Below are positions 37,658-58,068 of a stretch of DNA of 64,000 nucleotides, one piece after another. Origin of the DNA: a virus; IMG/VR virus record IMGVR_UViG_3300045988_107889, positions 1 to 64,000 of that record; one strand, written 5' to 3'. The first letter of the stretch is position 1. Each line of letters starts with the position of its first letter. Made by a program: the position numbers and the translations under genes. The notes beneath the pieces were generated by a model, which was not told the origin of the DNA, did no database searches, and saw only the letters and a list, made by a program, of their open reading frames with translations.

Positions 37658-38768
37658 CTTTTACACCCTCCGTTTCCGGATATTTGTTAGGGAATAGACT
37701 ATATCATTACCCGTAAGACACGGGCAGTCAGCGCTTCCATTTAAGGGGATCTCACCCACTGAGAGTTTCACTCAGCCGTACTCCTATTGCGGAATCTCAC
37801 CGCCAACGGGATAGTCGTTGCACCTTCCTTATTAAAGGCTTGGCACAGAATTATCATATAGCACATTGTTTTTAACTTATATTATTTGATGTACACCATT
37901 CATCCCATCCGTCAACATGTACGTGCTTCCACGTTCTGTTATTCTTTATACTGAGCACGATGCCGTAACTGATGTTATTCTTTTTTGAAACCGCAGTAAT
38001 ATTTTCTCCATTCATAAGCGATTCCTTTATCCCTTTAGCGACGTCTTCAGATATTTTAGCGGATTTGTTTTTGCTTCCTTGAAGCGCCTTTGAGATCTTT
38101 TCTCTCGTATAATCACTGACGACTCTTCCCGTCATAAGCTCTCGCAATTTATTTTTGTGTTCATCTGAGCACGGTAAATGTTTGCTTGACTCTGACATTT
38201 TTCGCTTCGTCTCTTCAGAAGCTTTTCGCCCAAGCATATGCTCCCGATTTTTCTCTCCGACGATACGCTTTGCGTGGTCGTTCATAGGCACCCCACGTTT
38301 CCCGCCTCCGCCATCCGAAATATTGTAGCAGCTCCCTTTATCTTTTAGTTCTTTTATGTAGTATATTTCAGCGGCATCGACGTCATCACTATCGCTACAA
38401 ATTTGCACAACTGAAAACGTGAAGGAGTCTGATCCGTATTTATTCCAGGCGTTTTGTAAATGCCTGTTATCGTGTGAATGATCATTTAATTTCCAACAAT
38501 GATTCCAAAATCTTCTTTGAAAATTTTGCTTGGTCTGCCCAATATATTGCTTGCCGTTAACTGTATTGGTAATAGAATATATTCCAAAAAGATCTTTATA
38601 TTTTTCTTCTTCTATAAATTTCAATAATACTCCTCTTGGTAACTCATCAGAATTTATTTTATGTGCTACTTAGATTTTCTCTGTTAGCCGGTTCTTGACC
38701 GACACCCTACATGTGTAGGTTCACTGACTTTGCACTACGCTGTTACCAGCGCAGGCCACCGATTGTTG
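37658..38768 (-). mobile_element. group I intron (1111 nt) carrying a GIY-YIG homing endonuclease ORF
   Basis: 5' splice site follows U (..AAAUCCAU|CAAC). Intron nt 10-13 GUGG pair with exon CCAU (U-G wobble), and nt 5-8 AAUC pair with the 3' exon GAUU (P10). The intron ends in G (..GUAAAAG|AGAUUAC). Contains a P7-type AAUGAUAUAGUCU. Shares blocks with the intron at 39053-39332. Confidence 0.75.
37872..38624 (-). CDS. GIY-YIG homing endonuclease (I-TevI-like, with NUMOD-type repeats and a C-terminal HTH)
   Basis: GIYSITNTVNGKQYIGQT..RRFWNH..N GIY-YIG core, repeated ..EETKRKMSES / DEHKNKLREL / REKISKAL motifs, TTG start preceded by GAGGAG. Confidence 0.85.
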   Translation of the reverse strand: MKFIEEEKYKDLFGIYSITNTVNGKQYIGQTKQNFQRRFWNHCWKLNDHSHDNRHLQNAWNKYGSDSFTFSVVQICSDSDDVDAAEIYYIKELKDKGSCYNISDGGGGKRGVPMNDHAKRIVGEKNREHMLGRKASEETKRKMSESSKHLPCSDEHKNKLRELMTGRVVSDYTREKISKALQGSKNKSAKISEDVAKGIKESLMNGENITAVSKKNNISYGIVLSIKNNRTWKHVHVDGWDEWCTSNNIS

Positions 38769-43622: not shown

Positions 43623-44323
43623 AGGGGCATCAACTCTTTGAAGTAGACAAGTCCCGCGTTTATAAAAATGGCATACCGCCCTTCATGATAGTTGTCTACC
43701 GTACACAGAGGGTGTGTCGATTGTCCGTCCCGAACCGCCATGCTAGACATATTTTTTTCAAATCGCTTCCTGTACTTATCAACATTATTGGTGCTTCTGC
43801 CCAGCACTCGGCAGACATCCGTAAATGTGAGCGGCGCAATCAAGTCTAGATTTTCTTCGTACGGATTCCAGCACAACACATGCTCGCTCTTATGTATAAA
43901 TGGGATCAGTCGAAGTACGGTGCCAATCTCTTTTGCGCTCTTCACGTTGTCCGTATACAGTCTTTGATATTTAGGCACGGACAGTCGTGCGGTTGGGGCG
44001 GCGTACCTTTTCTGCCGTGGCAGCCTACCCTTAGCGAACAACCAGTTACTCAAGATCAAGCATCCCTGGGCGCTTTCGTCCACCAGACGCGCCCGTTCCA
44101 TATCGTCTAAAAATTTGTAAAAGGCGTCTTTCCCAATCTGTAAGATATCTTGGGCCTCACTCTTTGACATTGGGTGCTGCGCTCTCGTGCGGCCAGCCAT
44201 CACCACACTCCCATCTTGCATCGGGTTCTCTGAATACTGCATGTGCGTCGCCAGCATAGCGACCCTAGCTAAGTTTGCCAAAGTGATGTCCGGGCAGAAA
44301 CATTCCCCGATTTGTTTGGGCAA
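43613..44323 (-). CDS. DNA-binding (wHTH-like) early protein; probably extends upstream to ~44515
   Basis: GTVLRLIPFIHKSEHVLCWNPYE..IAPLTFTDVCRVLGRSTNNVDKYRKRFEKN. The frame stays open 64 codons upstream of the TTG to an ATA that lies 9 nt after AGGAGG (44530-44525). Confidence 0.6.
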   Translation of the reverse strand: MPKQIGECFCPDITLANLARVAMLATHMQYSENPMQDGSVVMAGRTRAQHPMSKSEAQDILQIGKDAFYKFLDDMERARLVDESAQGCLILSNWLFAKGRLPRQKRYAAPTARLSVPKYQRLYTDNVKSAKEIGTVLRLIPFIHKSEHVLCWNPYEENLDLIAPLTFTDVCRVLGRSTNNVDKYRKRFEKNMSSMAVRDGQSTHPLCTVDNYHEGRYAIFINAGLVYFKELMPLCQ

Positions 44324-44569
44324 CCTTAGGAATATGAACTGTTCGTCAGATCGGACACGAGCGTTCGCTCTAAAGACATCAATGCCTCGCTCCTTCTGCC
44401 TCTGAACTATTTTGATTTCTTCATCTTGGTGTAGAGGGCGGAAGCCATGCCCGCGTCTAAAAATACCGAAGGTGTTGTCTGGACCTCGCTCAATTGATTC
44501 GTAGCGTTTATCTATAGTGTGCTACCTCCTTATAAAAATTTTGTTGTCGCGGCCTTGCCGCCTGATTAT

Positions 44570-44598
44570 AATATACAAGTTTTTCTTTCAAACGTCAA
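44570..44598 (-). promoter_or_regulatory. consensus sigma-A-type early promoter (leftward)
   Basis: Minus strand reads TTGACG (44598-44593), 17 nt (tttgaaagaaaaacttg), then TATATT (44575-44570). Confidence 0.75.
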
Positions 44599-44665
44599 GG
44601 GGATAGAGTGGAACTCGTGCGAAATCCAACTCGAAATATTCTGATAAAAAATATACTGGGCGACT

Positions 44666-44911
44666 ATGAACAATTGTGAATAAATTATGAACATACATGA
44701 ACGAATTGTTAACAAATAGATTTTCGGACACACTCTGCTATCTTGTCCGCGATACGCTACGCCCCTTCCATATCCTTGAAATTCTGCGCTTCTTTAGATG
44801 CCTGTGGCCTGAAGCTCAATATTTAATTGTGAACAAACTATTAACAAAATACGTTCACTTTAACAGGTAGGCGTACTTTGGCAGAAAAATAGGCGTACTT
44901 AGACAGAAAGA
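44666..44911. promoter_or_regulatory. operator/iteron-like repeat cluster in the divergent control region
   Basis: ATGAAC x3 (44666, 44687, 44697). AATTGTKAAYAAA x3 (44672, 44704, 44825). 22-bp tandem repeat taggcgtactt.g.cagaaa.a x2 (44868-44889, 44890-44911; 19/22 identical). Confidence 0.55.
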
Positions 44912-45030
44912 GCGGATTGTGATTTTGTGTTGATATACCAACATTTTTTAGCTGTTGAGACACTTGTATTATATCTTATATCTATATATACATATATATA
45001 GTAATTCTCTCCGTCACACCTCTATCTCTT

Positions 45031-45809
45031 GTAAGGTAGTCCGTGGCGTGTCAGTAGATCAGCCGTCCTATCTCTTCGCCCCGGCCTGGAGAAGTAGGTA
45101 AGTCCGTAGAAGGGAAAAGGAAAGGTACGCCTGCGGCGTAGTCCGTAGAGAGAAAAGTGAGATGAGCTGTCTTGCTTGTGTGGGTAGTAGTTCTGTAACG
45201 CTGGTGGTGGGTAGGGCTGCGCCGGGATGAACGCGAGATGGTAGGGGGCGAAAGAATGTAGGTTAGCAGGTAGAAGGAAAAGTGATCCGTAGAGGGAAGA
45301 GTGGGTAAGGGCGTGGTGCATGGTGGATGTGGGGAGCGCTATGTTGTTCGCCAGAGGTGAGCTAGGTTTCGGAAGGTAGCAGACCGTCATATCTCCATCC
45401 TGTGTATGGCCGCTGCAGCGGCGGCTTGTTAGGTCGCTGCGCTCCCGAAGATTTTTTATTTTTAGCCCGTACAAGAAAAATGGAGTAGAAGAACTTTTCC
45501 TGTTGGTGGGGACGGCGTAACGGAATGATGGTCAGGCTTCCAGGCCATGACCTTCTCGCAGGAGAGGTTGGAGCTTTCTACAAAAGAAAGCGTGAGAGCG
45601 GCAGGAGTGGGAGATCAGCGAAGAGGGTTGGCAAGACGGAGCCGACGTGGATGGTTGAGGGGAAGAGCTGTTCTGCGATAGGAGGCGGGACTTGCAACGC
45701 TTCGCGTGAGGATTCATTTTTTTAGCCCGTAGAAAGAAATGGGATGAGAAGAGTGCTGGTTACGGAAGTAACTAGGGGTGGGAAGCCGCATAGCCACGGA
45801 CTACCTTAC
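45031..45809. repeat. 17-bp perfect inverted repeat pair A (45031-45047 / 45793-45809)
   Basis: gtaaggtagtccgtggc versus gccacggactaccttac, exact reverse complements. Flanks are unrelated. Confidence 0.9.
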
Positions 45810-45920
45810 GGTATTTCAATTTTTTAAAAGAAACAGCGCAGGATAGTTATTGGGTGAGAGGTAGAGCGTTTAGGGCCAAGTAGTGCTGGTGGATGGAACA
45901 CCACCTTTTCTCTCTACGGA
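45142..45920. repeat. 16-bp perfect inverted repeat pair B (45142-45157 / 45905-45920)
   Basis: tccgtagagagaaaag versus cttttctctctacgga. Both partners are offset by 111 to 112 nt from pair A, so the two pairs are interleaved rather than nested. Confidence 0.9.
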
Positions 45921-46140
45921 AAAAGAGCGGGAGCGATTCCGGGAGCGGAGCGACCTACAAGATGCCGCTGCAGCGGCCTTCCGTAAGAGGGAAACTAGAC
46001 GGTTGAACTTACCTATCATGTTTTCTTCCACACTACGCAGAGAAAATAGAACGGAACGGTCAGGGGTATATACCTACATACCCAACATATTATCTCTCTA
46101 ATTTTTCGTGGGACTACAGGAAGAAAATAGACCTCAGAAG

Positions 46141-47031
46141 TCAAATGGCGGCGGGGGTTGAATCAGCAGGTGCTTCGTACAGAGCAGCGAGCTGGTAGTC
46201 GTATCCGTTGCCACCCAGGTTCAGGTTGGTGTAGGCTTCGGTCATCTCTTCCTTGGTGAGGCCGATGTAGCAGAGGGTCTCGTTCATGGAGGAGTGGCCG
46301 AACATCTTCTGGAGGAGTACCAGCTTGCGAGGGTCGTTGCCGGACATCATCATCTGATGATAGCCGAACGTCTTGCGGAGGGAGTGAGAGGAGAACCGGA
46401 AGTCGAAGTTGCAGTGGTCGGCGATATCTTCTAGGATACGATTGACAGATCTTCTGTTGAGAGGACCAGGCTCGTAAGCACCACGGTTGTTGCTCTCAGA
46501 CCGGAACACTAGGTCAGACAGACTGACAGAGTAGGGTGCGTGCTCCAGGTAGAGTTCCACAGCGTCCATGACCGCGTCGTTGATGACAACGTAGCGGTTC
46601 TTTTTTCTTTTACGGGTGGAGGCAGTTTTCTTTTCCAGGATCTCAAAGGATTCTTTAAAGGAGAAGTCCTCGTTTAGGATGTGGGTGAACCGGAGACGCT
46701 GCAGGTCACTAATTCGGAGGCCGAAGTTGATGCCCATGACAAGTAGCATATGATCTCTGTAGCGGTGGTTGTCCAGAAGGTAGGAGCACGCTCTACGGAT
46801 GTCTTCAACACTCTTGATAGGGTCAGCCGCTCGGTCAGGTGCGGTGATGGCCTCTACCGGCTGGTCGCTCTGAGCGGTGATCCGGCTGGCAGCAGATTGC
46901 TTGAGTACCCGTGAACGGCTACTGTCGGCAGTCCGTGAGCGGCGGACAGAGTTGACGTCGATGGACGCGGGGTTGACAGTTTTGCTGGCGGGGTTGACAG
47001 CACTGTTGGGGAAAGAAATTAGGTTGCTCAT
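46141..47031 (-). CDS. short tyrosine recombinase (catalytic domain plus disordered N-terminus)
   Basis: GLRISDLQRLRF (box I Arg), HSLRKTFGY (HxxR), GHSSMNETLCYIG (His...Tyr). ATG at 47031 lies 8 nt after AGGAGG. Visibly GC-richer than the phage backbone. Confidence 0.85.
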   Translation of the reverse strand: MSNLISFPNSAVNPASKTVNPASIDVNSVRRSRTADSSRSRVLKQSAASRITAQSDQPVEAITAPDRAADPIKSVEDIRRACSYLLDNHRYRDHMLLVMGINFGLRISDLQRLRFTHILNEDFSFKESFEILEKKTASTRKRKKNRYVVINDAVMDAVELYLEHAPYSVSLSDLVFRSESNNRGAYEPGPLNRRSVNRILEDIADHCNFDFRFSSHSLRKTFGYHQMMMSGNDPRKLVLLQKMFGHSSMNETLCYIGLTKEEMTEAYTNLNLGGNGYDYQLAALYEAPADSTPAAI

Positions 47032-47081
47032 TGGCAAAACCTCCTTTTAAATTTGAAATGTTTTCTATTGATTATGTTACT

Positions 47082-47110
47082 ATTATAGCGAAAATGTTTT
47101 CAAATGTCAA
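47082..47110 (-). promoter_or_regulatory. consensus sigma-A-type promoter of the recombinase gene
   Basis: Minus strand reads TTGACA (47110-47105), 17 nt (tttgaaaacattttcgc), then TATAAT (47087-47082). Confidence 0.75.
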
Positions 47111-47526
47111 GATTTTTGGACGGCGAATTCCAAGAAATTTTCCAAAATTTATGAGCTACTGATTACGTCCCAAAATCAGAGACTGGAGAAACGAAGAGGA
47201 AACTTTAACCAAATAAAGTGAAATGAAAAGTTCTGATAATCAATATGTTGCGGATGGAAGTGGCGAGTTTTGGTGAGAAAAAGTTGTGAAATGGTGGAAC
47301 AACTAATTCCATATTACATTAAAAAACCGGCTTTAAAATATGGAAATTGCCCCCTCTACACCCCATAGGCGGGAAATGGGACGTTACTAATAAACGGTGT
47401 TAGGTACTATAATAGACTATAGTCTAGAACGGCTAATGGTCATTAGCTTGCCTGGCACAAATCAATAATAGGAATAAGTCTCAATAACACATTCTGACCG
47501 AAAAAATAAAAAATGCAAAAAAGGGG

Positions 47527-47556
47527 TTGACAAACCATGTCTATGTCTGGTATACT
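47527..47556 (+). promoter_or_regulatory. sigma-A-type promoter P1 of the non-coding RNA region
   Basis: TTGACA, 18 nt, TATACT. Confidence 0.7.
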
Positions 47557-47723
47557 CAAAGCACAGTCAAGGGACGGACGCCAAACCGGATGGACGGCGA
47601 AAAGTGACAGTCGCCGGTTATGTCCTAACCTGATTGTATGACGTAAACCAGGCCAGCCCGGCGGCCTTGCTCCATAGGAGCGGAAGCCAGGCAAAAAAAT
47701 CCCTGAAGAATCACAAAAACCGC

Positions 47724-47752
47724 TTGACAAAAACAAGCCGATGTGATAAGAT
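47724..47752 (+). promoter_or_regulatory. sigma-A-type promoter P2 of the non-coding RNA region
   Basis: TTGACA, 17 nt, TAAGAT. Confidence 0.6.
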
Positions 47753-48474
47753 AGGGACAGCTCGAACGGGGCAACCTGTTTTGAGTGGGGCAAAATGAGA
47801 CATTACAAAATCCAGGCAACCGGATAGCAATTTGACTTTTGCCAAAAAATCTACCACTTGACTAACCATTGAGTGGTACGTGCGGATAGCACGCTATACC
47901 GCACGGCGTACCTTGAAAACTCAATGCCAGACATTTCCTTTTCCGGCGTGGGGCGTTTTACCGTATTTATACGGTAAAACCAATGTAAGTTGGTAGCCCT
48001 CCTATGTGTAGTGTACTCCGTATTTATACGGATAATACTATCCATGGCACGATTAACCAGATTGGGAGATGGTAAAACGTGGCAAGTGCTAAAGGCGCAA
48101 GGGTGCAATAAGGCTGGAAACGGCTGGATATTATAGAGGTATCCTATCCTTTTACAGGATTTACCACTCTGTCGGACGTCCCCAGGGGATAACTATACCC
48201 TGGGGAAGAAAGAGGATAAACCGCTAAAACAATAGCGTGCTGGTTGGCACGCCGTGACCTGTTATGCGGGGGCGTTGTGGGATGTACCAGGGTGGCCAGA
48301 AGGGGAAAAAGACTAATAATCTGGAAACGTCAGAGAAAGATTATTAGCAAGTACCTGGAATAAAGTTAGCACAACACCGGATGGCGTGGCTTGTTATGAG
48401 TGCAGTGACGGTAACAAGCATAGGTCTATAGTTAAGACCTATCAGACGGTGATAAAACTCTTACTGGAAAAATC

Positions 48475-48541
48475 TAGGCCGGGTATGTTTTGTAGTTAGT
48501 AGCGAACGTGAACCCTAAAATTCATGCCCGGCCTATTTTTG
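48475..48541 (+). terminator. terminator-like long-range stem plus T-run closing the structured RNA
   Basis: taggccggg (48475-48483) pairs with cccggccta (48527-48535), followed by TTTTT. Confidence 0.55.
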
Positions 48542-48660
48542 AAAGAGGATTTGTTTTTTTTTATTATCAAATAAGAAGTCGTCAAAAGTGAATCAGACCG
48601 GCGGAACATCCACCTGTGTAATTTACCTTTGAAAATTACTACATAAAAAGGAGAATAACC

Positions 48661-49449
48661 ATGAATAACAATGAATTGTTGAAAAAGTACGAATCCACTA
48701 CCACCACCGACCTGAACAATCAGGTGAAGTCCGCTGTCGAGAAGGCAAACGCCTATGCTAAACAGCCCGAACTGAACCAGGTCGAGCTGTTGAAGCTCCG
48801 TGCCGATGCCGTTGCTCTGGCAGATGACTATAACCGTCTGGTAAAGCTCCGCCGTCTGGGCGAGCTGGCCGCCATGTCCTACGGGGACGCCATCAACGCC
48901 ATGACGGTAGAGGGCGGGGAAACTTGCCCCAAGATGGAAGTGATTCTCGATGGGGAGATCATGAACATCACCACGTCCAACGCCACCCGTATCCGCTGGA
49001 ACGAGTTGTTGAAGGCTGGCCAGTGTCCCGACGGTTACGAAAACCTGGAATCCCTGGTAAAGGTTTTCACCCACAACTGCCTCACCAACAAATTTGAAAA
49101 GGGTCAGTTGGTCGAGCTGCCCCCGCTGGACCCCGCTATCAAAGCGGTCGCTAATGGTCGTGACAACTGGGACTCTGGCTCTATGAATAAGTTGCAGTGC
49201 CAGATCCGGGATCTCATCGGCTGGATGTTCCCGGTGGACGAAGTAGGGGAATACTCTGCTCCTAGAAAGTCTGATGTACGGTGGTTTTCTGACATCGTTT
49301 GCCCTGCGAGTGACCGCGCTGGTGAACCTGCCCACTATGTCCAGCGCAAGGTATCTACTTTGTTGGACTCCCTGTTCAGAGTGTTCTATACCCTGAAAGA
49401 GGAGAAGGAAGTGGTCGTACGGCCTGCAAAAGCTAGCAAGAACCAGTAA
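48661..49449 (+). CDS. hypothetical protein (262 aa) downstream of the structured RNA
   Basis: Strong RBS aaaaaggagaataacc-ATG. GC-richer codon usage like the recombinase. No motif recognised. Confidence 0.7.
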   Translation: MNNNELLKKYESTTTTDLNNQVKSAVEKANAYAKQPELNQVELLKLRADAVALADDYNRLVKLRRLGELAAMSYGDAINAMTVEGGETCPKMEVILDGEIMNITTSNATRIRWNELLKAGQCPDGYENLESLVKVFTHNCLTNKFEKGQLVELPPLDPAIKAVANGRDNWDSGSMNKLQCQIRDLIGWMFPVDEVGEYSAPRKSDVRWFSDIVCPASDRAGEPAHYVQRKVSTLLDSLFRVFYTLKEEKEVVVRPAKASKNQ

Positions 49450-49559
49450 GTCGTTCCGGCGACTATAAACAGGCGTTAGGCCGGGAGCGTTCGCAGGTTA
49501 GGGCAAGCCCAACCTGCGAGGTCGCAGGAATAACATAGGTGGATTCTGTCTATGCCTGC

Positions 49560-49616: not shown

Positions 49617-50609
49617 ATGAGTAACCATACATATGTAGTCGGTGAATATACCGACTATGGTTATAAAGGTGGTGATGGTTTGTATAACGAAGATATTAAG
49701 CGGAATTTTTTGGATACGGAATGCAGTAGCTTGAAAAAGCAAAGAGATATTGCGAAAGTTTTTTCTTCTATCGCGTCGTTTGAGCAAGAGAATGGTCTAG
49801 ACATCGCTGAAATGGGCAAGAATTTGAGCGCGCAGGCTCTTGAACGTACTGGAATAAATGAGTATAGTGGAATTAGGAGTTATATTACTAGGTTAAGAGA
49901 GTATGCAAGATGGTGCGAAAAAAACAATATCTTCCCATCAATCCCCGGCGGGATTTTTGAAGTTTCTCCGGACGATGTGGATATTACAGATTCTCTAAAA
50001 GGGGTTTTGTTTAAAGACGAATTTGACTTGCTGGAGTCTATTAGATTAGTCCGTGACTTTGATTCTGGCTATCCAGAGGTTGCAGCCTTTTGTCTTTACT
50101 GGGTCGGTCTTACAAAAGACGAAGCAGTTTTGCTAAAAGACACTGACGTTGACTTGGAAAACAAGATCGTTTATGTTCATGACGGTATTGTTGCAGAAGA
50201 CTTTTCGGATGCCATTTGTGATGTATTAAACCGTTACCGTAATTGCAAATGGTCAACCCGGGCGAACGGAACTACACTCATGAGCGTTCGCAAGGATTTG
50301 TCTGTTGACACATTTCTTAAAAGGATGTTAACAGATGGTTCTAAAAAATTCGGTATGCCTGTAACAAAAACACAAATCACAGCACTATGTCAAGATGTGG
50401 TGACGGATTGTTCAGCACTTGGTCTCCCTAGTCGTCATACTTTTCAAAACGTCTGGCGGTGCGGTGGGTTCAATCGTATGTACAAGCTGGAACAATCCGG
50501 CGTGGATGTAATGAACCGCCCCACCATAGAAACGGTTTTTCGTGGAAAAAAGAATTACTACGATACACTAAGAATGTATCAATATTATAAAAAGGTCTTT
50601 GGTTTATAA
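49617..50609 (+). CDS. tyrosine-recombinase-fold-like protein with apparently degenerate active site
   Basis: AAFCLYWVGLTKDEAVLLKDTDVDLENKIVYV resembles integrase box I but has K instead of R. C-terminal HTFQNVWRCGGFNRMY sits in place of HxxR...Y. Tentative. Confidence 0.35.
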   Translation: MSNHTYVVGEYTDYGYKGGDGLYNEDIKRNFLDTECSSLKKQRDIAKVFSSIASFEQENGLDIAEMGKNLSAQALERTGINEYSGIRSYITRLREYARWCEKNNIFPSIPGGIFEVSPDDVDITDSLKGVLFKDEFDLLESIRLVRDFDSGYPEVAAFCLYWVGLTKDEAVLLKDTDVDLENKIVYVHDGIVAEDFSDAICDVLNRYRNCKWSTRANGTTLMSVRKDLSVDTFLKRMLTDGSKKFGMPVTKTQITALCQDVVTDCSALGLPSRHTFQNVWRCGGFNRMYKLEQSGVDVMNRPTIETVFRGKKNYYDTLRMYQYYKKVFGL

Positions 50610-53761: not shown

Positions 53762-54427
53762 ATGGCTAAGTATGAGTACGACAAAAGTTATCCCTTCGCT
53801 GTTTATATCACGAACCTCGGGAAGTACAACGAGGGCGAGCTTGTGGGCGAGTGGGTTCACCTCCCCACAACAGCCAAAGAAATGAAGGAGGTGTTCGAGC
53901 GTATTGGGATCGGCCAGAAGGATGACTTCGGATGCCCTTATGAGGAGTGGTTTATCACGGACTATGACTGTTATGTAACTGACCTTTGTCGGGGGTTCGG
54001 CGAATACGAAAATCTGGACGAGCTGAATTACCTGGCAGCAAGATTGGACGAGATGAGTGATCATGACTTTGAATTGTTCGAAGCGGTTATTGAGACAGGG
54101 GACTGCGGCGATTCTGTTAAAGATCTTATCAATCTCGTGGATAACCTGGATAGCTATATGGTCTTCTCTAATGTGACCAGCGACTACGACCTTGGATATT
54201 ACTACATCGAGGAAAGTGGTTGCTATGATACGGACAAGCTTGGCACGCTGGCCAGGTATATCGACTATGAAAGTTTTGGTCGAGACGTCCGGTTTGAAGA
54301 AGGAGGGTGTTTCACTTCCGCTGGATATGTTTTGCATGATGGTTCGAGCTTTACGGAATACTACGAGGGTGTCGAGGATATCCCCGATGAATATCGGGTA
54401 ATGACTTTCAAAGAGGAGGATGAATGA
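53762..54427 (+). CDS. ardA: ArdA-type antirestriction protein
   Basis: FAVYITNLGKYNEGELVGEWVHLP...EEWFITDYD...YENLDELNYLA is the characteristic ArdA N-terminal signature. The protein is highly acidic. Confidence 0.85.
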   Translation: MAKYEYDKSYPFAVYITNLGKYNEGELVGEWVHLPTTAKEMKEVFERIGIGQKDDFGCPYEEWFITDYDCYVTDLCRGFGEYENLDELNYLAARLDEMSDHDFELFEAVIETGDCGDSVKDLINLVDNLDSYMVFSNVTSDYDLGYYYIEESGCYDTDKLGTLARYIDYESFGRDVRFEEGGCFTSAGYVLHDGSSFTEYYEGVEDIPDEYRVMTFKEEDE

Positions 54428-54968: not shown

Positions 54969-54997
54969 TTGACGTTTGAAAAATAATCTTATATAAT
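54969..54997 (+). promoter_or_regulatory. consensus sigma-A-type promoter of the tRNA array
   Basis: TTGACG, 17 nt (tttgaaaaataatctta), TATAAT. Confidence 0.8.
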
Positions 54998-55040: not shown

Positions 55041-55132
55041 GGGGAGTTACCTGCGACGGCTCGCAGCGCTGTCTTGAAAACAGCTGGTACGGCTAGTAAC
55101 CGTATGGGGATCGACACCTCAGCTCCTCGCCA
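55041..55132 (+). tRNA. trnS-UGA: tRNA-Ser (anticodon UGA), class II, CCA encoded, non-canonical T-loop AUCGACA
   Basis: Acceptor GGGGAGU/GCUCCUC, anticodon arm GCUGU-CUUGAAA-ACAGC, long variable arm GUACGG..CCGUAU, then G-CCA. Confidence 0.7.
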
Positions 55133-55277
55133 CAAGACCATCAAACAGCACTTTGATAGGTCAAACTAGGCATGGTTTTGTTCACTTCCTTTCTTAAAAA
55201 ATTGTACTGTCTGTACTGTCATTGATCAAAAAATTTTTACTCCCCAAAAGCACCGGGTGCTGACGGCGCTTTTACTT

Positions 55278-55459
55278 GCCTCCGTAGCTCAGCAGGTAGA
55301 GCAGGGGCGGGCATCGAGTTTAGTTGACAACAGCGTGGGTTAAGTAGTTATGAATCAAAGGTGCGGTAAAGGCGCGGTTCAGGCTACTATATGGGCTTTA
55401 TCACTACGCTAACTCGTAATCCCGTCTCCGTGTCACCGGTTCGATTCCGGTCGGAGGCA
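55278..55459 (+). ncRNA. tRNA-shaped RNA with a ~125-nt insertion replacing the anticodon loop region (no encoded CCA)
   Basis: Perfect acceptor GCCUCCG/CGGAGGC, canonical D-arm GCUC-AGCAGGUA-GAGC, canonical T-arm ACCGG-UUCGAUU-CCGGU. Between them lies a long helix GGGGCGGG..CGAG / CUCG..CCCG(U)CUCC. Confidence 0.6.
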
Positions 55460-55571
55460 TAGCCGCAAGCTATGATTAAGAACGTAAGTTCTGTAAGGGC
55501 GGCGTTGCTGACGTTGCTCTAGTCTTACACTCCTACTTGTGACTTGACAGCCCGGAAAGACGGGCAAACAC

Positions 55572-55647
55572 ACCAGCATAGTTTTAAATGGGAAAACAAC
55601 GGTCTCCAAAACCGTAGTTCTAGGTTCGAGTCTTAGTGCTGGTGCCA
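55572..55647 (+). tRNA. trnW-CCA: tRNA-Trp (CCA)
   Basis: ACCAGCA/UGCUGGU acceptor (A1-U72, G73), anticodon arm ACGGU-CUCCAAA-ACCGU, T-loop UUCGAGU, CCA encoded. Confidence 0.85.
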
Positions 55648-55714
55648 CGTGCAAGTTTAATTGCACGGTGTGTAGTGTGAAAAAAGTCATATATTGCTCT
55701 ATGTATATAACCTC

Positions 55715-55863
55715 ACGGCGTAAAAGAGGTTGACTGTCTGACCGCAGTTATTCCAGTGCAATTCTGGTTGCCGTACACGCTGCTCAAAGCGGGTGAAGAG
55801 GTGTGGCACACTCCTTCCGTGCCTCACTTATGACTTCAAGGCGGTGCAATTCCGCCTAGCAGC
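55715..55863 (+). ncRNA. two adjacent tRNA-like / degenerate tRNA elements sharing a hairpin loop UGCAAUU
   Basis: Unit 1 (55715-55774): ACGGCG...CCAG-UGCAAUU-CUGG-UUGCCGU. Unit 2 (55779-55863): GCUGCU...GGCAC-ACUCCUUCC-GUGCC...GGCGG-UGCAAUU-CCGCC-UAGCAGC. Both lack a D-stem and CCA. Confidence 0.35.
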
Positions 55864-56053
55864 TCTCAATCGCTCTAGTTAACTGGTTCTGGGGCGAGGG
55901 TCAAAACCAGCAACCTAAACATTGATTGCAGACACCTGGTTAAGTACAGGCTAGGCAAGAAAGCTCTCAGGCACGGTTGGGCAACACAATCCAGCCCTAT
56001 CCTTTGGTTAGGCCGACTGATTGATAGGGCGGTTGTGGTTGCTGAACAAATAT

Positions 56054-56144
56054 CTCCCTGTAGCTAAATTGGTTATAGCTTCCAACTTATAATTGGAAGG
56101 CCCTCATAAGGTATATGGTGATTCGAATTCACCCAGGGAGACCA
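56054..56144 (+). tRNA. tRNA with anticodon UAU (Ile2-type reading AUA) but a class II-like 19-nt variable arm
   Basis: CUCCCUG/CAGGGAG acceptor, D-arm GCUA..UAGC, anticodon arm UCCAA-CUUAUAA-UUGGA, variable region AGGCCCUCAUAAGGUAUAU, T-arm GGUGA-UUCGAAU-UCACC, A-CCA. Confidence 0.65.
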
Positions 56145-56195
56145 CGATACCACGATAAAAATCTAATTCCATAAATAAGAAAGTGAGGAACTAAT

Positions 56196-56849
56196 ATGAA
56201 CAAAGAAACTATGACCGTCCATAAAGCTCTTGCGGAGCTGAAAATTTTGGACGCTAGAATTTTCAACGCCACTTCTGGCAAAACATTTGTCGCCGCGAAG
56301 AAGGTGAGCGACAAAAAGATCGGCGGTGTGTTGGTCGAAACCCTCAAGAAGGATATGAAGTCTGATTATCAGTCTGTTACGGACTTGATTGCTCGTCGGA
56401 CTGCCATTAAGAGAGCAGTTGTGCTCTCTAATGCCAAAGCTAAGGTAGTAATTGGTGGTGAGACCTATACTGTGGCAGAAGCTATTGAAATGAAGAACCA
56501 TGGCCTCATGGCAAAGAGAGACTTGCTGGATGTAATGGTTCGGCAGTATGAAAAGGCTCGTGCCGAGGTCGCCAAACACGAAGGCGAGTGGATTGAAGCG
56601 AAAGCCGAGCAATACATTATGAATTTCCTTCAGTCGCAGCCCAAAGAGGCCAAGACAACCAAGGATTCTGAGGTCGTTAAGCGGTTGAGAGAAGAGTATA
56701 TTGCCAACAATACGTATGAACTCATTGATCCGCTTGACATTGGTAATGAAATCAAGGTTTTGAGCGATTGGATTGACGCGTTTACTGCGGATGTAGATTC
56801 TCAGCTGTCTGTGTCCAATGCGACCACTACAATCACCGTAGAATACTAA
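56196..56849 (+). CDS. hypothetical protein embedded in the tRNA array
   Basis: 217-aa ORF with RBS gtgaggaactaat-ATG. Helical and Lys/Glu-rich. Confidence 0.7.
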   Translation: MNKETMTVHKALAELKILDARIFNATSGKTFVAAKKVSDKKIGGVLVETLKKDMKSDYQSVTDLIARRTAIKRAVVLSNAKAKVVIGGETYTVAEAIEMKNHGLMAKRDLLDVMVRQYEKARAEVAKHEGEWIEAKAEQYIMNFLQSQPKEAKTTKDSEVVKRLREEYIANNTYELIDPLDIGNEIKVLSDWIDAFTADVDSQLSVSNATTTITVEY

Positions 56850-56856
56850 AATAATC

Positions 56857-57199
56857 AACTTGCTGCAACCCGAAAACCTAAAACGGTAACCCATCGTGCT
56901 GACGGCACTTGGTTCGATGTAAAAATGAACAAATATGTGCCAACTACAAGGCAAACTTGAAATTTTGTGCTTGTAAAAAGATTGGGCGGTTAATCCAAAT
57001 CTCTTATAAAAAGAAGATATTTGCTGTAAAGCTCAAATTTCAAAGCTCGAATTTCAAAATTCAAGGCTCAAAGATCTTCAGAAGATTAAAGTTCAAGGGT
57101 CAACGTTCAATGGTTAAAGTTTTACAAAATCCTGGGTTAATGGTTTGGGTCAGTTATCAACGCCCACGGGTCAACCACCAGGCTGGGTTGTAGCAAGTT
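56857..57199 (+). ncRNA. ~343-nt element closed by a 15-bp helix, containing TTCAA/GCTCAA-type short repeats
   Basis: AACUUGCUGCAACCC (56857-56871) pairs with GGGUUGUAGCAAGUU (57185-57199). The single difference is a G-U wobble only on the plus-strand RNA. The interior has aagctcaaatttca/aagctcgaatttca and ttcaagg(c/g)tcaa repeats. Confidence 0.4.
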
Positions 57200-57205
57200 C
57201 AATAT

Positions 57206-57290
57206 GCGGGATTGGCGGAATTGGTAGACGCATCGTGTTTAAGTCTCGATGTCGAAAGACGTAGGAGTTCGAGTCTCCTATCCCGTACCA
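57206..57290 (+). tRNA. trnL-UAA: tRNA-Leu (UAA)
   Basis: GCGGGAU/AUCCCGU acceptor, anticodon loop UUUAAGU, long variable arm, T-loop UUCGAGU, A-CCA. Confidence 0.8.
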
Positions 57291-57439
57291 AAGAAAAGCC
57301 CATAGTTTGCGGACTATGACACCTGAAAAGTGGCGGTTTGCTTCTGGTAGACCGTAGTAGTGTGTTGACATCCTGGAAGAGACAGGAGTTCCCCTTTTTG
57401 ATCCCCCTTACATAGCTACCCCGCTTTGCGGGGTAGCGT

Positions 57440-57515
57440 GGCCGATTAGTTTAAATGGTAAAACGGCGGATTTGTACCCCGCAGATGTCGAGTTCGAGCC
57501 TCGCATTGGCCTCCA
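57440..57515 (+). tRNA. trnT-UGU: tRNA-Thr (UGU)
   Basis: GGCCGAU/AUUGGCC acceptor, anticodon loop UUUGUAC, T-loop UUCGAGC, U-CCA. Confidence 0.8.
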
Positions 57516-57516
57516 T

Positions 57517-57590
57517 GCTACTATAGTTTAATGGTTGAACGGTTGTTTCGTAAGCAACAGGTTCCAGTTCGATTCTGGGTAGTAGCTCCA
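57517..57590 (+). tRNA. trnT-CGU: tRNA-Thr (CGU)
   Basis: GCUACUA/UAGUAGC acceptor, anticodon arm GUUGU-UUCGUAA-GCAAC, T-loop UUCGAUU, U-CCA. Confidence 0.85.
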
Positions 57591-57593
57591 TAT

Positions 57594-57668
57594 CTGGGTG
57601 TAGCGCAATGGAAGCGCTCCTGATTTGGGATCAGGAGGTTGTCAGTTCGAGCCTGACCACTCAGACCA
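57594..57668 (+). tRNA. trnP-UGG: tRNA-Pro (UGG)
   Basis: C1-G72 acceptor CUGGGUG/CACUCAG, anticodon arm CCUGA-UUUGGGA-UCAGG, A-CCA. Confidence 0.85.
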
Positions 57669-57670
57669 AT

Positions 57671-57745
57671 GCAGGCGTAGTTCAACGGCTAGAACACCGG
57701 TCTTCCAAACCGGAAACGCGAGATCGGCACTCGTCGCCTGCTCCA
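57671..57745 (+). tRNA. trnG-UCC: tRNA-Gly (UCC), non-canonical T-loop AUCGGCA
   Basis: GCAGGCG/CGCCUGC acceptor, anticodon arm CCGGU-CUUCCAA-ACCGG, U-CCA. Confidence 0.8.
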
Positions 57746-57851
57746 TATCAAGCAACAGAAAACGATTCTCCTACCTGTTATTGTTGATAAATCACCTCCT
57801 TTCTTTACATAGCCTGGAATGGCGTTAAACTCTGCTCTGCTTGATTTATAT

Positions 57852-57925
57852 AGCGCCGTAGCATAACGGTAATGCAACGGACTTTGACTCCGTAAACGGT
57901 AGTTCGACACTATCCGGCGCTGCCA
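57852..57925 (+). tRNA. trnQ-UUG: tRNA-Gln (UUG)
   Basis: AGCGCCG/CGGCGCU acceptor, anticodon arm ACGGA-CUUUGAC-UCCGU, T-loop UUCGACA, G-CCA. Confidence 0.8.
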
Positions 57926-57983
57926 CGTTCGTTTTATACGGACACTTGCTTTCATTAACCGGCGGTACCACCGCCGGTAACAT

Positions 57984-58068
57984 GTGGGCGTGATGTAATT
58001 GGCAAACATGCGAGATTTAGGTTCTCGTGTCGAAAGATGTGCGGGTTCGAACCCCGTCGCCCACTCCA
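57984..58068 (+). tRNA. trnL-UAG: tRNA-Leu (UAG)
   Basis: GUGGGCG/CGCCCAC acceptor, anticodon arm CGAGA-UUUAGGU-UCUCG, long variable arm, U-CCA. Confidence 0.85.

What the first reader, a model, noticed from the sequence alone, without database searches (positions are those of the whole stretch)
55278..55459. tRNA-shaped RNA whose anticodon arm is replaced by a ~125-nt extended rod
- The acceptor stem is perfect at 7 bp (GCCUCCG/CGGAGGC, A73).
- The D-arm (GCUC-AGCAGGUA-GAGC) and T-arm (ACCGG-UUCGAUU-CCGGU) are textbook.
- Between them the sequence forms a long helix: GGGG-CGGG / CCCG-(U)-CUCC, an internal loop CAU/UAAU, then CGAG/CUCG, then UU(U)AG/CUAA, plus about 85 nt more.
- No 7-nt anticodon loop closes a 5-bp stem.
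- The insertion is too short for a group I intron and lacks its core.
- The 3' side carries CUCGUAA, 6 of 7 identical to the anticodon loop UUCGUAA of the downstream tRNA-Thr(CGU).
- Unlike all canonical tRNAs in the array, it has no encoded CCA.
- It may be a tRNA with a novel small intron, or a tRNA-derived scaffold RNA.
Basis: partly seen in the sequence, partly recalled or inferred. Interest (0 to 1): 0.65.

Follow-up and report, generated by a model that had tools for sequence, protein, structure and literature searches.

The report
Phage tRNA-like RNA with rod arm
A tRNA gene cluster of a human-gut phage carries an optional but well-conserved RNA with a normal tRNA body and a long irregular helix instead of an anticodon arm, so it is probably a tRNA mimic rather than a decoder, though its function is untested.

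Summary
Window 55278-55459 (+) has a perfect tRNA frame: 7-bp acceptor, D arm, T arm, A73 and no encoded CCA. A 126-nt irregular helix sits where the anticodon arm should be. ARAGORN and Rfam do not call it, and 40 shuffles of the window gave no such frame.

It is one removable unit (RNA plus 112-nt spacer, 55278-55571) of a modular tRNA array in an SPbeta-like gut phage. I found six sequence variants. About a dozen close relatives lack exactly this unit, and none carries an uninterrupted version.

The tRNA body (3/56 variable columns) and the basal rod (5/73) are as conserved as the neighbouring real tRNAs (tRNA-Trp 8/76). The spacer (25/112) and the apical hairpin (22/53, with indels) are not.

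No excision gives a 5-bp stem with a 7-nt loop. There is no group I core, BHB motif, ribozyme or tmRNA feature. The arrays checked already carry a canonical tRNA-Thr(CGU).

Best reading: a selected, accessory tRNA-like RNA derived from a Thr tRNA. The body would secure processing and stability, and the conserved basal rod would be the working part. Function is untested.

Side finding: related phages carry whole tRNAs nested inside the anticodon loops of other tRNAs.

The parts
55278..55459 (+). Whole tRNA-like RNA gene (182 nt): G1 to discriminator A73, no encoded CCA
   Evidence: Sequence. Fold. Own scan. Six variants.
55278..55303 (+). 5' tRNA body: acceptor 5' strand 55278-55284, U8 A9, D arm 55287-55302 (GCUC-AGCAGGUA-GAGC), A26
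   Evidence: Two variable columns in six variants: G7A in L176 and the D-loop C/U.
55304..55311 (+). P1 5' strand GGGGCGGG. It pairs with 55421-55429 (CCCG-U-CUCC, U148 bulged).
   Evidence: G29->A in L177 turns G.U into A-U in this register and would break the ungapped register.
55312..55314 (+). Internal loop, 5' side: CAU (CGU in 3 of 6 variants), opposite UAAU at 55417-55420
55315..55320 (+). P2 5' strand CGAGUU. It pairs with AACUCG at 55411-55416. Invariant.
55321..55331 (+). Invariant 11-nt bulge UAGUUGACAAC on the 5' strand. The 3' strand runs from P3 into P2 without a break.
55332..55338 (+). P3 5' strand AGCGUGG. It pairs with 55404-55410 (CUACGCU).
   Evidence: C-G -> U.G in L087
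55343..55388 (+). Variable apical hairpin. P4 is 55343-55348 / 55383-55388. P5 is 55351-55356 / 55376-55381. The loop holds an 11-nt tandem duplication, AAAGGUGCGGU|AAAGGCGCGGU (55357-55378), seen only in the window and L001.
   Evidence: One compensatory A-U -> G-C change in P5. 22 of 53 columns vary.
55389..55403 (+). 3' side of the upper internal loop, UAUAUGGGCUUUAUCA. Partly variable.
55404..55429 (+). Invariant 3' strand of the basal rod: CUACGCU-AACUCG-UAAU-CCCG-U-CUCC. It contains the Thr(CGU)-like heptamer CUCGUAA (55413-55419).
55430..55459 (+). 3' tRNA body: variable loop GUGUC, T arm ACCGG-UUCGAUU-CCGGU (55435-55451), acceptor 3' strand 55452-55458, A73 at 55459
   Evidence: A49-U65 alternates with G.U among variants.
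55460..55571 (+). 112-nt spacer that is gained and lost together with the RNA gene. It ends in the hairpin GCCCG-GAAAGA-CGGGC (55550-55565), 6 nt before tRNA-Trp +1.
   Evidence: Indel boundaries. 25 of 112 columns vary. GCCCG/CGGGC -> GCUCG/CGAGC in L176.
55250..55277 (+). Upstream hairpin GCACCG-GGUGCUGA-CGG(C/U)GC followed by UUUUACUU. It abuts the element's +1. In relatives without the cassette it abuts tRNA-Trp +1.
54969..54997 (+). Promoter-like site TTGACG-17-TATAAT (11/12), the likely start of the array transcript
   Evidence: This is a consensus match only.

Best explanation
The element is a functional, accessory tRNA-like non-coding RNA, not a decoding tRNA. It derives from a tRNA-Thr(CGU)-type gene.

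Shown:
- It keeps an intact tRNA body.
- It lacks a usable anticodon arm.
- It is carried as a removable cassette in the tRNA array of SPbeta-like gut phages.
- The body and the basal ~73 nt of the rod are under purifying selection as strong as that on neighbouring tRNAs. The apical hairpin drifts.

Inferred mechanism:
- It is transcribed with the array.
- The tRNA body makes it a substrate for RNase P at the 5' end.
- Because it has no CCA, RNase Z would cut after A73 in a Firmicutes host, possibly followed by CCA addition. This would give a stable ~180-nt RNA with a tRNA elbow.
- The conserved basal rod is the working surface. It comprises an 8-bp stem, the CAU/UAAU loop displaying the Thr-like CUCGUAAU, P2, the invariant 11-nt bulge and P3.
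- That surface would bind, and probably titrate or mislead, a protein that recognises tRNA(Thr)-like molecules. Candidates are a host tRNA-targeting defence nuclease or a tRNA-modifying or charging enzyme.

The partner is not identified.
For: - tRNA frame and rod.
- No canonical arm after any excision.
- The best E. coli matches of the body are tRNA-Thr genes. G1-C72, C2-G71 and A73 are read directly from the sequence.
- Six variants exist.
- Variable columns among five divergent copies:
  - body 3/56
  - basal rod 5/73
  - tRNA-Trp 8/76
  - (8/4) tRNA-Ser 5/93
  - cassette spacer 25/112
  - upstream spacer 48/117
  - apical rod 22/53
- Fisher tests (using the six-copy spacer count of 26/112): basal rod against spacer p=0.004. 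Body plus basal rod against spacer p=1.7e-4.
- Changes in stems are mostly pair-preserving: 1 compensatory and 5 wobble-compatible.
- Indels of 11, 9 and 1 nt in the apex rule out a conserved ORF on either strand.
- Canonical tRNA-Thr(CGU) and Thr(UGU) are present in the cassette-bearing arrays checked (window, L085, L087), so a decoder is not needed.
- The element alone lacks an encoded CCA.
- The cassette sits just downstream of an ArdA anti-restriction gene and is present or absent among near-identical phages, as accessory genes are.
- A second, unrelated CCA-less tRNA with a rod occurs in related phages, and its rod shows a compensatory change.
- T4 rnaC is a precedent for a stable tRNA-like RNA in a phage tRNA cluster.
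Against: - There is no expression, processing or binding data.
- Only six closely related copies exist. Covariation is not significant: 182 of 500 shuffles reach the observed score.
- Most close relatives do without the cassette.
- No partner protein, target sequence or known RNA motif was found.
- One copy (L176) has an A.C mismatch at pair 7-66, and one helix-end pair is broken in L085.
- The decoy role is an inference from anatomy and context only.
Confidence: 0.45

Rival explanations
1. It is an intron-containing pre-tRNA. The rod, or most of it, is removed and the exons are joined to give a working tRNA. That tRNA would be Thr(CGU) with loop A/CUCGUAA, or Gly(CCC) as ARAGORN proposes. Host or phage enzymes or a new small ribozyme would do the splicing, by analogy with the nested tRNA-in-tRNA genes of related phages.
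For: - The conservation pattern (exons and intron base conserved, apex free) is what introns show.
- ARAGORN -i calls it, and the spliced constructs are accepted by ARAGORN.
- Related phages have insertions at the same place in the anticodon loop whose removal restores perfect tRNAs.
- The 5' GGG of the insert pairs with the would-be CCC anticodon, as introns often do.
Against: - Every product is non-canonical: a 4-bp anticodon stem (Gly reading) or a 9-bp bulged stem (Thr reading). The review PMC7609411 describes anticodon stems of 5 bp, or 6 bp in the Sec, Pyl and mt-Ser exceptions.
- There is no group I core at E<=10, and the insert is 102-111 nt.
- No junction choice combines U-1 with omega-G.
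- There is no 3-4-3 bulge-helix-bulge.
- The insert has no acceptor/T-arm/NCCA, unlike the nested tRNAs.
- The acceptor identity (A73, C3-G70) does not fit Gly.
- A canonical tRNA-Thr(CGU) is already present.
- No RNA ligase was found among the ORFs scanned.
Confidence: 0.15
2. It is a tRNA-scaffolded precursor. The tRNA body only ensures transcription, processing and stability. The rod is cut out, for example by RNase III or RNase Y, to release a small regulatory RNA that pairs with a host or phage transcript.
For: - The long imperfect duplex with invariant single-stranded segments (11-nt bulge, 3' internal loop) looks like an sRNA precursor.
- The unrelated 122-nt rod-tRNA family of related phages carries an invariant pyrimidine-rich apical segment, CCUGUUCUUUUCGCUUUCUU, that looks like an anti-Shine-Dalgarno seed.
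Against: - No complementary target exists in the 64-kb window for the conserved unpaired segments beyond chance.
- The most exposed part, the apex, is the least conserved.
- Host targets could not be searched.
Confidence: 0.12
3. It is a dead tRNA gene: a tRNA-Thr disrupted by a junk insertion and now decaying, kept only by hitch-hiking in the array.
For: - It is absent from most close relatives.
- The apex carries a tandem duplication and indels.
- There is an A.C mismatch in the acceptor of L176.
- The rod has no homologue anywhere else.
Against: - The body and basal rod are no more variable than the flanking bona fide tRNAs (5-7% of columns against 10.5% for tRNA-Trp) and 3- to 6-fold less variable than adjacent spacers in the same genomes.
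- Stem changes are mostly pair-preserving.
- No relative has the uninterrupted ancestor.
Confidence: 0.15
4. The conserved sequence works at the DNA level. It could be a recognition or homing site for one of the phage's endonucleases or recombinases that shuffles array cassettes, and the RNA fold would be incidental.
For: - The cassette boundaries fall exactly at tRNA 5' ends.
- A GIY-YIG/NUMOD3 endonuclease and two tyrosine recombinase-like genes are in the window.
- An HNH endonuclease gene lies inside the array of a relative.
- T4 segB is a precedent.
Against: - Conservation covers two separated blocks that are mutually complementary, plus a complete tRNA frame, which a DNA site does not need.
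- No endonuclease gene is linked to the cassette.
Confidence: 0.05

Closest known systems
Phage T4 species 1 and 2 stable RNAs (rnaC, rnaD) in the T4 tRNA cluster
   Same: Both are non-decoding stable RNAs encoded among phage tRNA genes. rnaC has a canonical T arm (CCGGG-UUCGAAU-CCCGG), paired ends and long hairpins in between. By my own knowledge its function is still unknown.
   Different: There is no sequence homology. T4 rnaC has no regular D arm or 7-bp acceptor. The element here is a complete cloverleaf minus the anticodon loop. The host group is different (Firmicutes-type SPbeta-like phage).
tmRNA (tRNA-like domain joined to the long helix H2)
   Same: The architecture is alike: acceptor and T arm, with the anticodon arm replaced by a long interrupted helix.
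   Different: ARAGORN finds no tmRNA. C3-G70 replaces the G3.U70 alanine identity pair. A full D stem is present. The 20-codon ORF in the window copy is destroyed by the 11-nt indel in other copies. There are no pseudoknots.
[quoted passage not shown]
   Same: The insertion lies in the anticodon loop region of a bacterial-type tRNA gene.
   Different: There is no Intron_gpI match at E<=10. The insert is 102-111 nt, against about 200 nt or more (own knowledge). No junction combines U-1 with omega-G. The spliced product is non-canonical.
Archaeal/eukaryal tRNA introns with a bulge-helix-bulge motif
   Same: A helix extends the anticodon stem, and a 4-bp helix (CGAG/CUCG) is flanked by unpaired nucleotides.
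   Different: The loop is a 3x4 internal loop rather than a 3-nt bulge. The next bulge is 1 or 11 nt. No junction at 37/38 restores a loop. The phage is of a bacterial type.
Irregular tRNAs and allo-tRNA polycistrons (PMC5389517, PMC7609411); B. cereus tRNA-Other
   Same: These are non-canonical tRNA-shaped RNAs clustered with tRNAs in bacteria and phages, some of them proposed to be regulatory. The same array holds an (8/4) tRNA-Ser of this kind at 55041-55132.
   Different: Those RNAs keep a 5-6-bp anticodon stem and a 7-nt loop. None is described there with a ~126-nt rod.
Engineered 'tRNA scaffold' for recombinant RNA (PMC3753655, PMC3401473)
   Same: The design is the same: cargo RNA is inserted in place of the anticodon stem-loop of a tRNA so that the chimera is processed and stable.
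   Different: That is a laboratory construct. Here it is natural, and the conserved part is the base of the insert rather than a defined cargo.
tRNA-in-tRNA genes of related gut phages
   Same: They occur in the same phage group and the same array context, with the insertion in the anticodon triplet region of an otherwise intact tRNA.
   Different: Their inserts are tRNAs or mini-tRNAs with an acceptor, T arm and NCCA. Removing them restores canonical outer tRNAs. The window's insert has none of these properties.

Membership tests
Canonical tRNA (Rfam RF00005) | 7-bp acceptor stem, D arm, and T arm with a UUCRANY-type loop | tested here: met
Canonical tRNA (Rfam RF00005) | 5-bp anticodon stem closing a 7-nt loop with U33 and a purine at 37 | tested here: not met
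   The rod is 126 nt.
Canonical tRNA (Rfam RF00005) | Score at or above the family threshold, or a call by a tRNA finder in default mode | tested here: not met
   No RF00005 hit even at E<=10. ARAGORN default gives no call.
Group I intron in a tRNA | Catalytic core recognised by Intron_gpI | tested here: not met
   (E<=10, permissive filters)
Group I intron in a tRNA | U at -1 and G at omega, at junctions that restore a canonical anticodon loop | tested here: not met
   Junctions that restore CUCGUAA/AUCGUAA or CUCCCGU have C/A, U/U or G/G at -1/omega.
Archaeal-type BHB intron | Two 3-nt bulges on opposite strands separated by a 4-bp helix | tested here: not met
   A 3x4 internal loop, a 4-6-bp helix, then a 1- or 11-nt bulge
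Archaeal-type BHB intron | Splicing endonuclease available in the host | not testable with these tools
   The host is unknown. The phage is SPbeta-like.
tmRNA | G3.U70, no D stem, a conserved tag reading frame, and a call by ARAGORN's tmRNA search | tested here: not met
   C3-G70 and a D stem are present. The frame is broken by an 11-nt indel. There is no tmRNA call.
Self-cleaving ribozymes (hammerhead, twister, pistol, hatchet, hairpin, HDV-like) | Match to the Rfam model | tested here: not met
   No match over 55278-55459 at E<=10. The pistol hit is elsewhere, at 49449-49526.
   Only 4-bp or 9-bp stems result. All eight nested cases restore canonical tRNAs.
Stable tRNA-like RNAs of phage tRNA clusters (T4 rnaC type) | Encoded within a phage tRNA array, with a T arm, paired termini and no anticodon loop | tested here: met
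Stable tRNA-like RNAs of phage tRNA clusters (T4 rnaC type) | Accumulates as a stable processed RNA | not testable with these tools
   No expression data
Stable tRNA-like RNAs of phage tRNA clusters (T4 rnaC type) | Sequence homology to rnaC or rnaD | tested here: not met
   No phage-database hit to the rod

The most novel reading that the evidence does not exclude
The rod-tRNA and the tRNA-in-tRNA genes of its relatives may be two forms of one undescribed bacterial-phage system of tRNA 'introns'. Cargo RNAs would be inserted in the anticodon loop and cut out by tRNA end-processing or other host nucleases. For the nested tRNAs these would be RNase P and a 3' endonuclease, which leave 3'-OH and 5'-P ends. 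The tRNA halves would then be re-joined by an RNA ligase, giving two RNAs from one gene or a timed release of the outer tRNA.
Probability: 0.12. Interest if true: 0.85.

Novelty: new variant of a known kind. Interest (0 to 1): 0.6.

Why it matters
Phage tRNA arrays are increasingly read as counter-measures against host tRNA-cleaving defences (for example PMC10264068). A selected, optional array member that keeps the tRNA body but has no anticodon loop cannot decode, so it points to a non-translational use of the tRNA shape. That use could be a decoy, a scaffold or a ligand for a tRNA-binding protein. If so, it would be a natural counterpart of the laboratory tRNA scaffold.

The element also led to complete tRNAs nested in the anticodon loops of other tRNAs in related gut phages. 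If those are spliced, it would be a new route of tRNA maturation in bacteria. Both questions can be tested directly with small-RNA sequencing.

Tried and rejected
- **Alternative genetic code or suppressor tRNA.** Reassigning any single stop codon does not improve the gene map.
- **Homologues of the rod.**
  - The 25-mer and 18-mer scans of IMG/VR found only L001.
  - The gapped exon pattern found only adjacent tRNAs.
  - blastn against 50,697 phage records found nothing.
  - Covariance model R1 of the rod found nothing in 1.2 Mb of related loci.
- **Host origin.** The exact 5' half occurs in GTDB genomes in six archaeal tRNA-Asn genes and one candidate-phylum bacterial tRNA, all unrelated (different discriminator).
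- **Degenerate inner tRNA.** There is no tRNA model hit inside the rod at E<=10.
- **Peptide or tmRNA-like ORF.** The ORF ATG 55351 to TAA 55413 is not conserved, because an 11-nt indel shifts the frame.
- **Antisense targets in the window.** The invariant bulge and internal loop have none beyond chance.
- **sigma70 promoter inside the rod (TTGACA).** There is no -10 partner.
- **RNA ligase, RtcB or Pnkp genes.** None was found in 29 window ORFs and 10 ORFs of L016.
- **Covariation statistics.** They are uninformative at this depth.
- **MITE with terminal inverted repeats.** This was rejected because there is no second copy anywhere.
Full report
**1. What is in the sequence**

Window 55278-55459 (+) reads GCCUCCG-UA-GCUC-AGCAGGUA-GAGC-A-[126 nt]-GUGUC-ACCGG-UUCGAUU-CCGGU-CGGAGGC-A. 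The acceptor stem is 7/7 Watson-Crick, and the D and T arms are textbook. The discriminator is A, and the next bases are TAG, not CCA.

All nine tRNAs that ARAGORN calls in the array (55572-58068) encode CCA, as does an (8/4) tRNA-Ser at 55041-55132.

The single-sequence fold is a cloverleaf whose anticodon arm is a long irregular helix: -69.4 kcal/mol, z = -3.34. ARAGORN in default mode and the Rfam tRNA model, even at E<=10, do not report it.

A scan of my own required a 7-bp acceptor, a D arm and a T arm within 60-450 nt. It found nothing in 40 dinucleotide shuffles of the window.

**2. Anatomy of the rod (element numbering, window coordinate = 55277 + n)**

- P1: GGGG-CGGG (27-34) pairs with CCCG-U-CUCC (144-152), with U148 bulged.
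- Internal loop: CAU (35-37) opposite UAAU (140-143).
- P2: CGAGUU (38-43) pairs with AACUCG (134-139).
- An 11-nt bulge, UAGUUGACAAC (44-54), lies on the 5' strand only.
- P3: AGCGUGG (55-61) pairs with CUACGCU (127-133).
- A further internal loop leads to P4 (66-71/106-111), P5 (74-79/99-104) and the apical loop.

Variant L177 changes G29 to A. This turns the G.U pair of the bulged register into A-U and would break the ungapped register.

**3. Genomic setting**

The window is a phage.
- A T4-type large terminase is 43% identical to SPbeta yonF, and the best hits are all phages of Firmicutes.
- Structural genes lie on the minus strand and early genes on the plus strand.
- An ArdA anti-restriction gene (53762-54427) lies just upstream of the array. 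Its homologues are named from Lachnospiraceae and gut Caudoviricetes.
- A strong promoter-like site (54969-54997) precedes the array.
- The standard genetic code fits.

**4. Comparative evidence**

I reached relatives in three ways:
- through a 217-aa protein encoded inside the array;
- through ArdA homologues;
- through DNA patterns.

Six sequence variants of the element exist:
- the window, with an apparently identical copy in L171 (same nhmmer score);
- L001;
- L085;
- L087;
- L176;
- L177.

In a dozen loci from equally close relatives the sequence runs straight from ...CUUUUACUU into tRNA-Trp. These are L003, L005, L006, L084, L086, L088, L172-L175, L178 and L180, and some may be the same phage held in two collections. 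They lack exactly 55278-55571.

The unit that comes and goes is therefore the RNA gene plus its 112-nt 3' spacer, with boundaries at the +1 positions of two tRNA-type genes.

No relative has an uninterrupted tRNA at this place. No uninterrupted gene with the same exons was found:
- in IMG/VR;
- in 185,579 species genomes, where the seven exact hits to the 5' half are six archaeal tRNA-Asn genes and one unrelated bacterial tRNA.

**5. Selection**

Variable alignment columns among five divergent copies:

| Region | Variable columns |
|---|---|
| Element tRNA body | 3/56 (5%) |
| Basal rod | 5/73 (7%) |
| tRNA-Trp, next door | 8/76 (10.5%) |
| (8/4) tRNA-Ser | 5/93 (5%) |
| Cassette spacer | 25/112 (22%) |
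| Upstream spacer | 48/117 (41%) |
| Apical rod | 22/53 (41.5%) |

- Fisher tests (using the six-copy spacer count of 26/112): basal rod against spacer p=0.004. Body plus basal rod against spacer p=1.7e-4.
- The 26-nt 3' strand of the basal rod (55404-55429), which includes CUCGUAAU, is invariant.
- The apex tolerates an 11-nt tandem duplication (window and L001 only), other indels and substitutions. One of these is a compensatory A-U to G-C change in P5.
- Five further stem changes are wobble-compatible, and two helix-end pairs are broken.
- Covariation is not statistically significant with six close sequences: 182 of 500 shuffles reach the observed score. The case for function rests on the conservation contrast, not on covariation.
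- The apical indels are not multiples of three, so no protein-coding constraint explains the conserved blocks.

**6. Is it an interrupted tRNA?**

I enumerated every excision.
- With the stem GGGGC/(U)CUCC, no combination of flanking residues gives a loop with U33 and a purine at 37.
It gets there by accepting a 4-bp stem, or an A.G pair with no residue 26. The acceptor (A73, C3-G70) is also not Gly-like.
- The only canonical loops are CUCGUAA or AUCGUAA (Thr, CGU), closed by CGGG(C)/(U)CCCG. That arm then sits on four extra base pairs and a bulge, making a 9-bp stem.
- The review PMC7609411 describes anticodon stems of 5 bp, with 6 bp in the Sec, Pyl and mt-Ser exceptions.
- The body is Thr-like. 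The best E. coli matches are tRNA-Thr genes, and it has G1-C72, C2-G71 and A73.
- The cassette-bearing arrays checked (window, L085, L087) already have canonical tRNA-Thr(CGU) and Thr(UGU).

No known splicing signal is present:
- no group I core, with the insert about half the size of the smallest group I introns;
- no pairing of U-1 with omega-G;
- no 3-4-3 bulge-helix-bulge;
- no ribozyme model hit;
- no tmRNA features.

**7. What relatives show about the phenomenon**

The same scan over about 2 Mb of related arrays found two other kinds of interrupted tRNA.

(a) Complete tRNAs or mini-tRNAs, each ending in NCCA, inserted within the anticodon triplet of another intact tRNA:
- L014:13435-13582
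- L015:14125-14272
- L016:12270-12418
- L016:13306-13461
- L013:11323-11470
- L095:11-162
- L101:2268-2425
- L102:7052-7170

Findings on this group:
- ARAGORN calls the inner tRNA in L014, L015, L016 and L101. It makes no call for the inner RNA of L016:13306-13461, L102, L095 or L013.
- In-silico removal of the insert yields canonical outer tRNAs in all eight cases: Lys(UUU) twice, Ile(UAU) twice, Gln(UUG) twice, Asn(GUU) and Leu(UAA).
- One inner tRNA is an amber-suppressor type (CUA).
- Two Ile(UAU) hosts (L016, L101) differ by compensatory changes in the acceptor and T stems yet keep the same split loop.
- Two Gln(UUG) hosts carry different inserts one nucleotide apart and restore the same loop, CUUUGAC.

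(b) CCA-less tRNAs with a rod in place of the anticodon loop. The family is 122 nt long and occurs in L064, L066, L069 and L078. It has an invariant pyrimidine-rich apex and a C-G to U-A compensatory change (read from the sequences; fold of one member).

The window's element belongs with (b) in architecture but shares no sequence with it. It fails both defining tests of (a).

**8. Most likely mechanism**

Shown:
- An intact tRNA body.
- No usable anticodon arm.
- Cassette behaviour.
- Purifying selection on the body and basal rod.
- Redundancy with a real tRNA-Thr(CGU).

Inferred:
- The RNA is made from the array transcript.
- The body recruits RNase P.
- Because CCA is absent, the body also recruits RNase Z. 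This follows established knowledge for Bacillus, where RNase Z matures CCA-less precursors and CCA acts as an anti-determinant.
- The product is a stable ~180-nt tRNA mimic.
- Its conserved basal rod, which displays a Thr-anticodon-like CUCGUAAU in an internal-loop context, binds a tRNA-recognising protein and probably titrates it.

Two things make a counter-defence role the most economical guess. The cassette lies next to ArdA, and it is present or absent among near-identical phages. This role remains untested. I give this reading 0.45.

Rivals:
- Spliced pre-tRNA (0.15).
- Dead gene (0.15).
- Scaffold that releases an sRNA (0.12).
- DNA-level site (0.05).

**9. Comparison with what is known**

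- The nearest precedents in kind are the T4 species 1 and 2 RNAs.
- The nearest in architecture are the tmRNA tRNA-like domain with helix 2 and the engineered tRNA scaffold (PMC3753655).
- It is not a member of any of these families by sequence, nor of any Rfam family.
- Catalogues of phage structured RNAs mention tRNA-like candidates only generically (PMC10690425).
- Seven full-text searches found no description of this RNA or of tRNAs nested in tRNAs. The library does not cover all journals.

**10. Verdict**

It is a new variant of a known kind, the non-decoding tRNA-shaped RNAs of phage tRNA clusters. Its function is open, and interest is moderate to high. The nested tRNA-in-tRNA genes found on the way may be the more surprising result.

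Noticed in passing
L014:13435-13582; L015:14125-14272; L016:12270-12418 and 13306-13461; L013:11323-11470; L095:11-162; L101:2268-2425; L102:7052-7170: tRNA-in-tRNA genes. A complete tRNA or mini-tRNA ending in NCCA sits inside the anticodon triplet of another intact tRNA, and one insert is a CUA suppressor type. Removing the insert in silico restores canonical Lys, Ile, Gln, Asn and Leu tRNAs in all eight cases. I found no description of this in the paper library.
   Followed up: partly
L064:12242-12363; L066:11814-11935; L069:10506-10627; L078:12229-12352: A second, unrelated family of CCA-less tRNAs (122 nt) has an 8-bp stem and a rod in place of the anticodon loop. It shows an invariant pyrimidine-rich apex (CCUGUUCUUUUCGCUUUCUU) and a compensatory change in the rod. 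The anticodon-like residues differ between members.
   Followed up: partly
L018:12428-12532; L117:6017-6121; L146:1919-2022: A third family (~105 nt, with CCA) has a ~35-nt hairpin extension of the anticodon arm. A 90-nt relative (L054:5899-5988, L162) lacks the extension.
   Followed up: no
window 49449-49526 (+): A pistol self-cleaving ribozyme scores 66.9 bits against a threshold of 34.5. It starts on the last base of ORF 48661-49449 and lies upstream of a recombinase-like gene at 49617-50609.
   Followed up: no
window about 44300-48600: About 4.3 kb has plus-strand GC skew but no convincing ORF in any code. It contains the repeated motif TCCGUAGAGAGAAAAGUG and perfect long-range inverted repeats (45031-45047/45793-45809 and 45142-45157/45905-45920). 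This could be a large structured RNA or an inverted duplication. There is no Rfam hit.
   Followed up: partly
window 55041-55132 (+): ARAGORN and Rfam miss a tRNA here. It has an 8-bp acceptor, a 4-bp T stem, a 6-bp D stem with a 4-nt loop, a long variable arm, anticodon UGA (Ser) and an encoded CCA. It is an (8/4) tRNA-Ser of the allo-tRNA group known from phages and Clostridia (PMC5389517). Similar stretches occur in Lak megaphages.
   Followed up: yes
window 55779-55864 (+): Another tRNA-like fragment has a 6-bp terminal stem (GCUGCU/AGCAGC), a T-arm-like GGCGG-UGCAAUU-CCGCC and a long hairpin. The hairpin stem is kept but its loop is replaced in L001.
   Followed up: no
window 56054-56144 (+): tRNA-Ile(UAU) has a long variable arm (91 nt), which is unusual for Ile. 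Homologues occur in most related arrays.
   Followed up: no
window 55250-55277 and 55550-55571: Each array unit ends in a short hairpin a few nucleotides before the next tRNA +1. Units are gained and lost exactly at tRNA 5' ends, so array composition differs among phages that are more than 90% identical.
   Followed up: partly
window 37872-38624 (-); L016:11279-11881: The window holds a GIY-YIG/NUMOD3 homing-endonuclease gene, and an HNH endonuclease gene lies inside the tRNA array of a relative. Both are candidate drivers of cassette shuffling, as with T4 segB.
   Followed up: no
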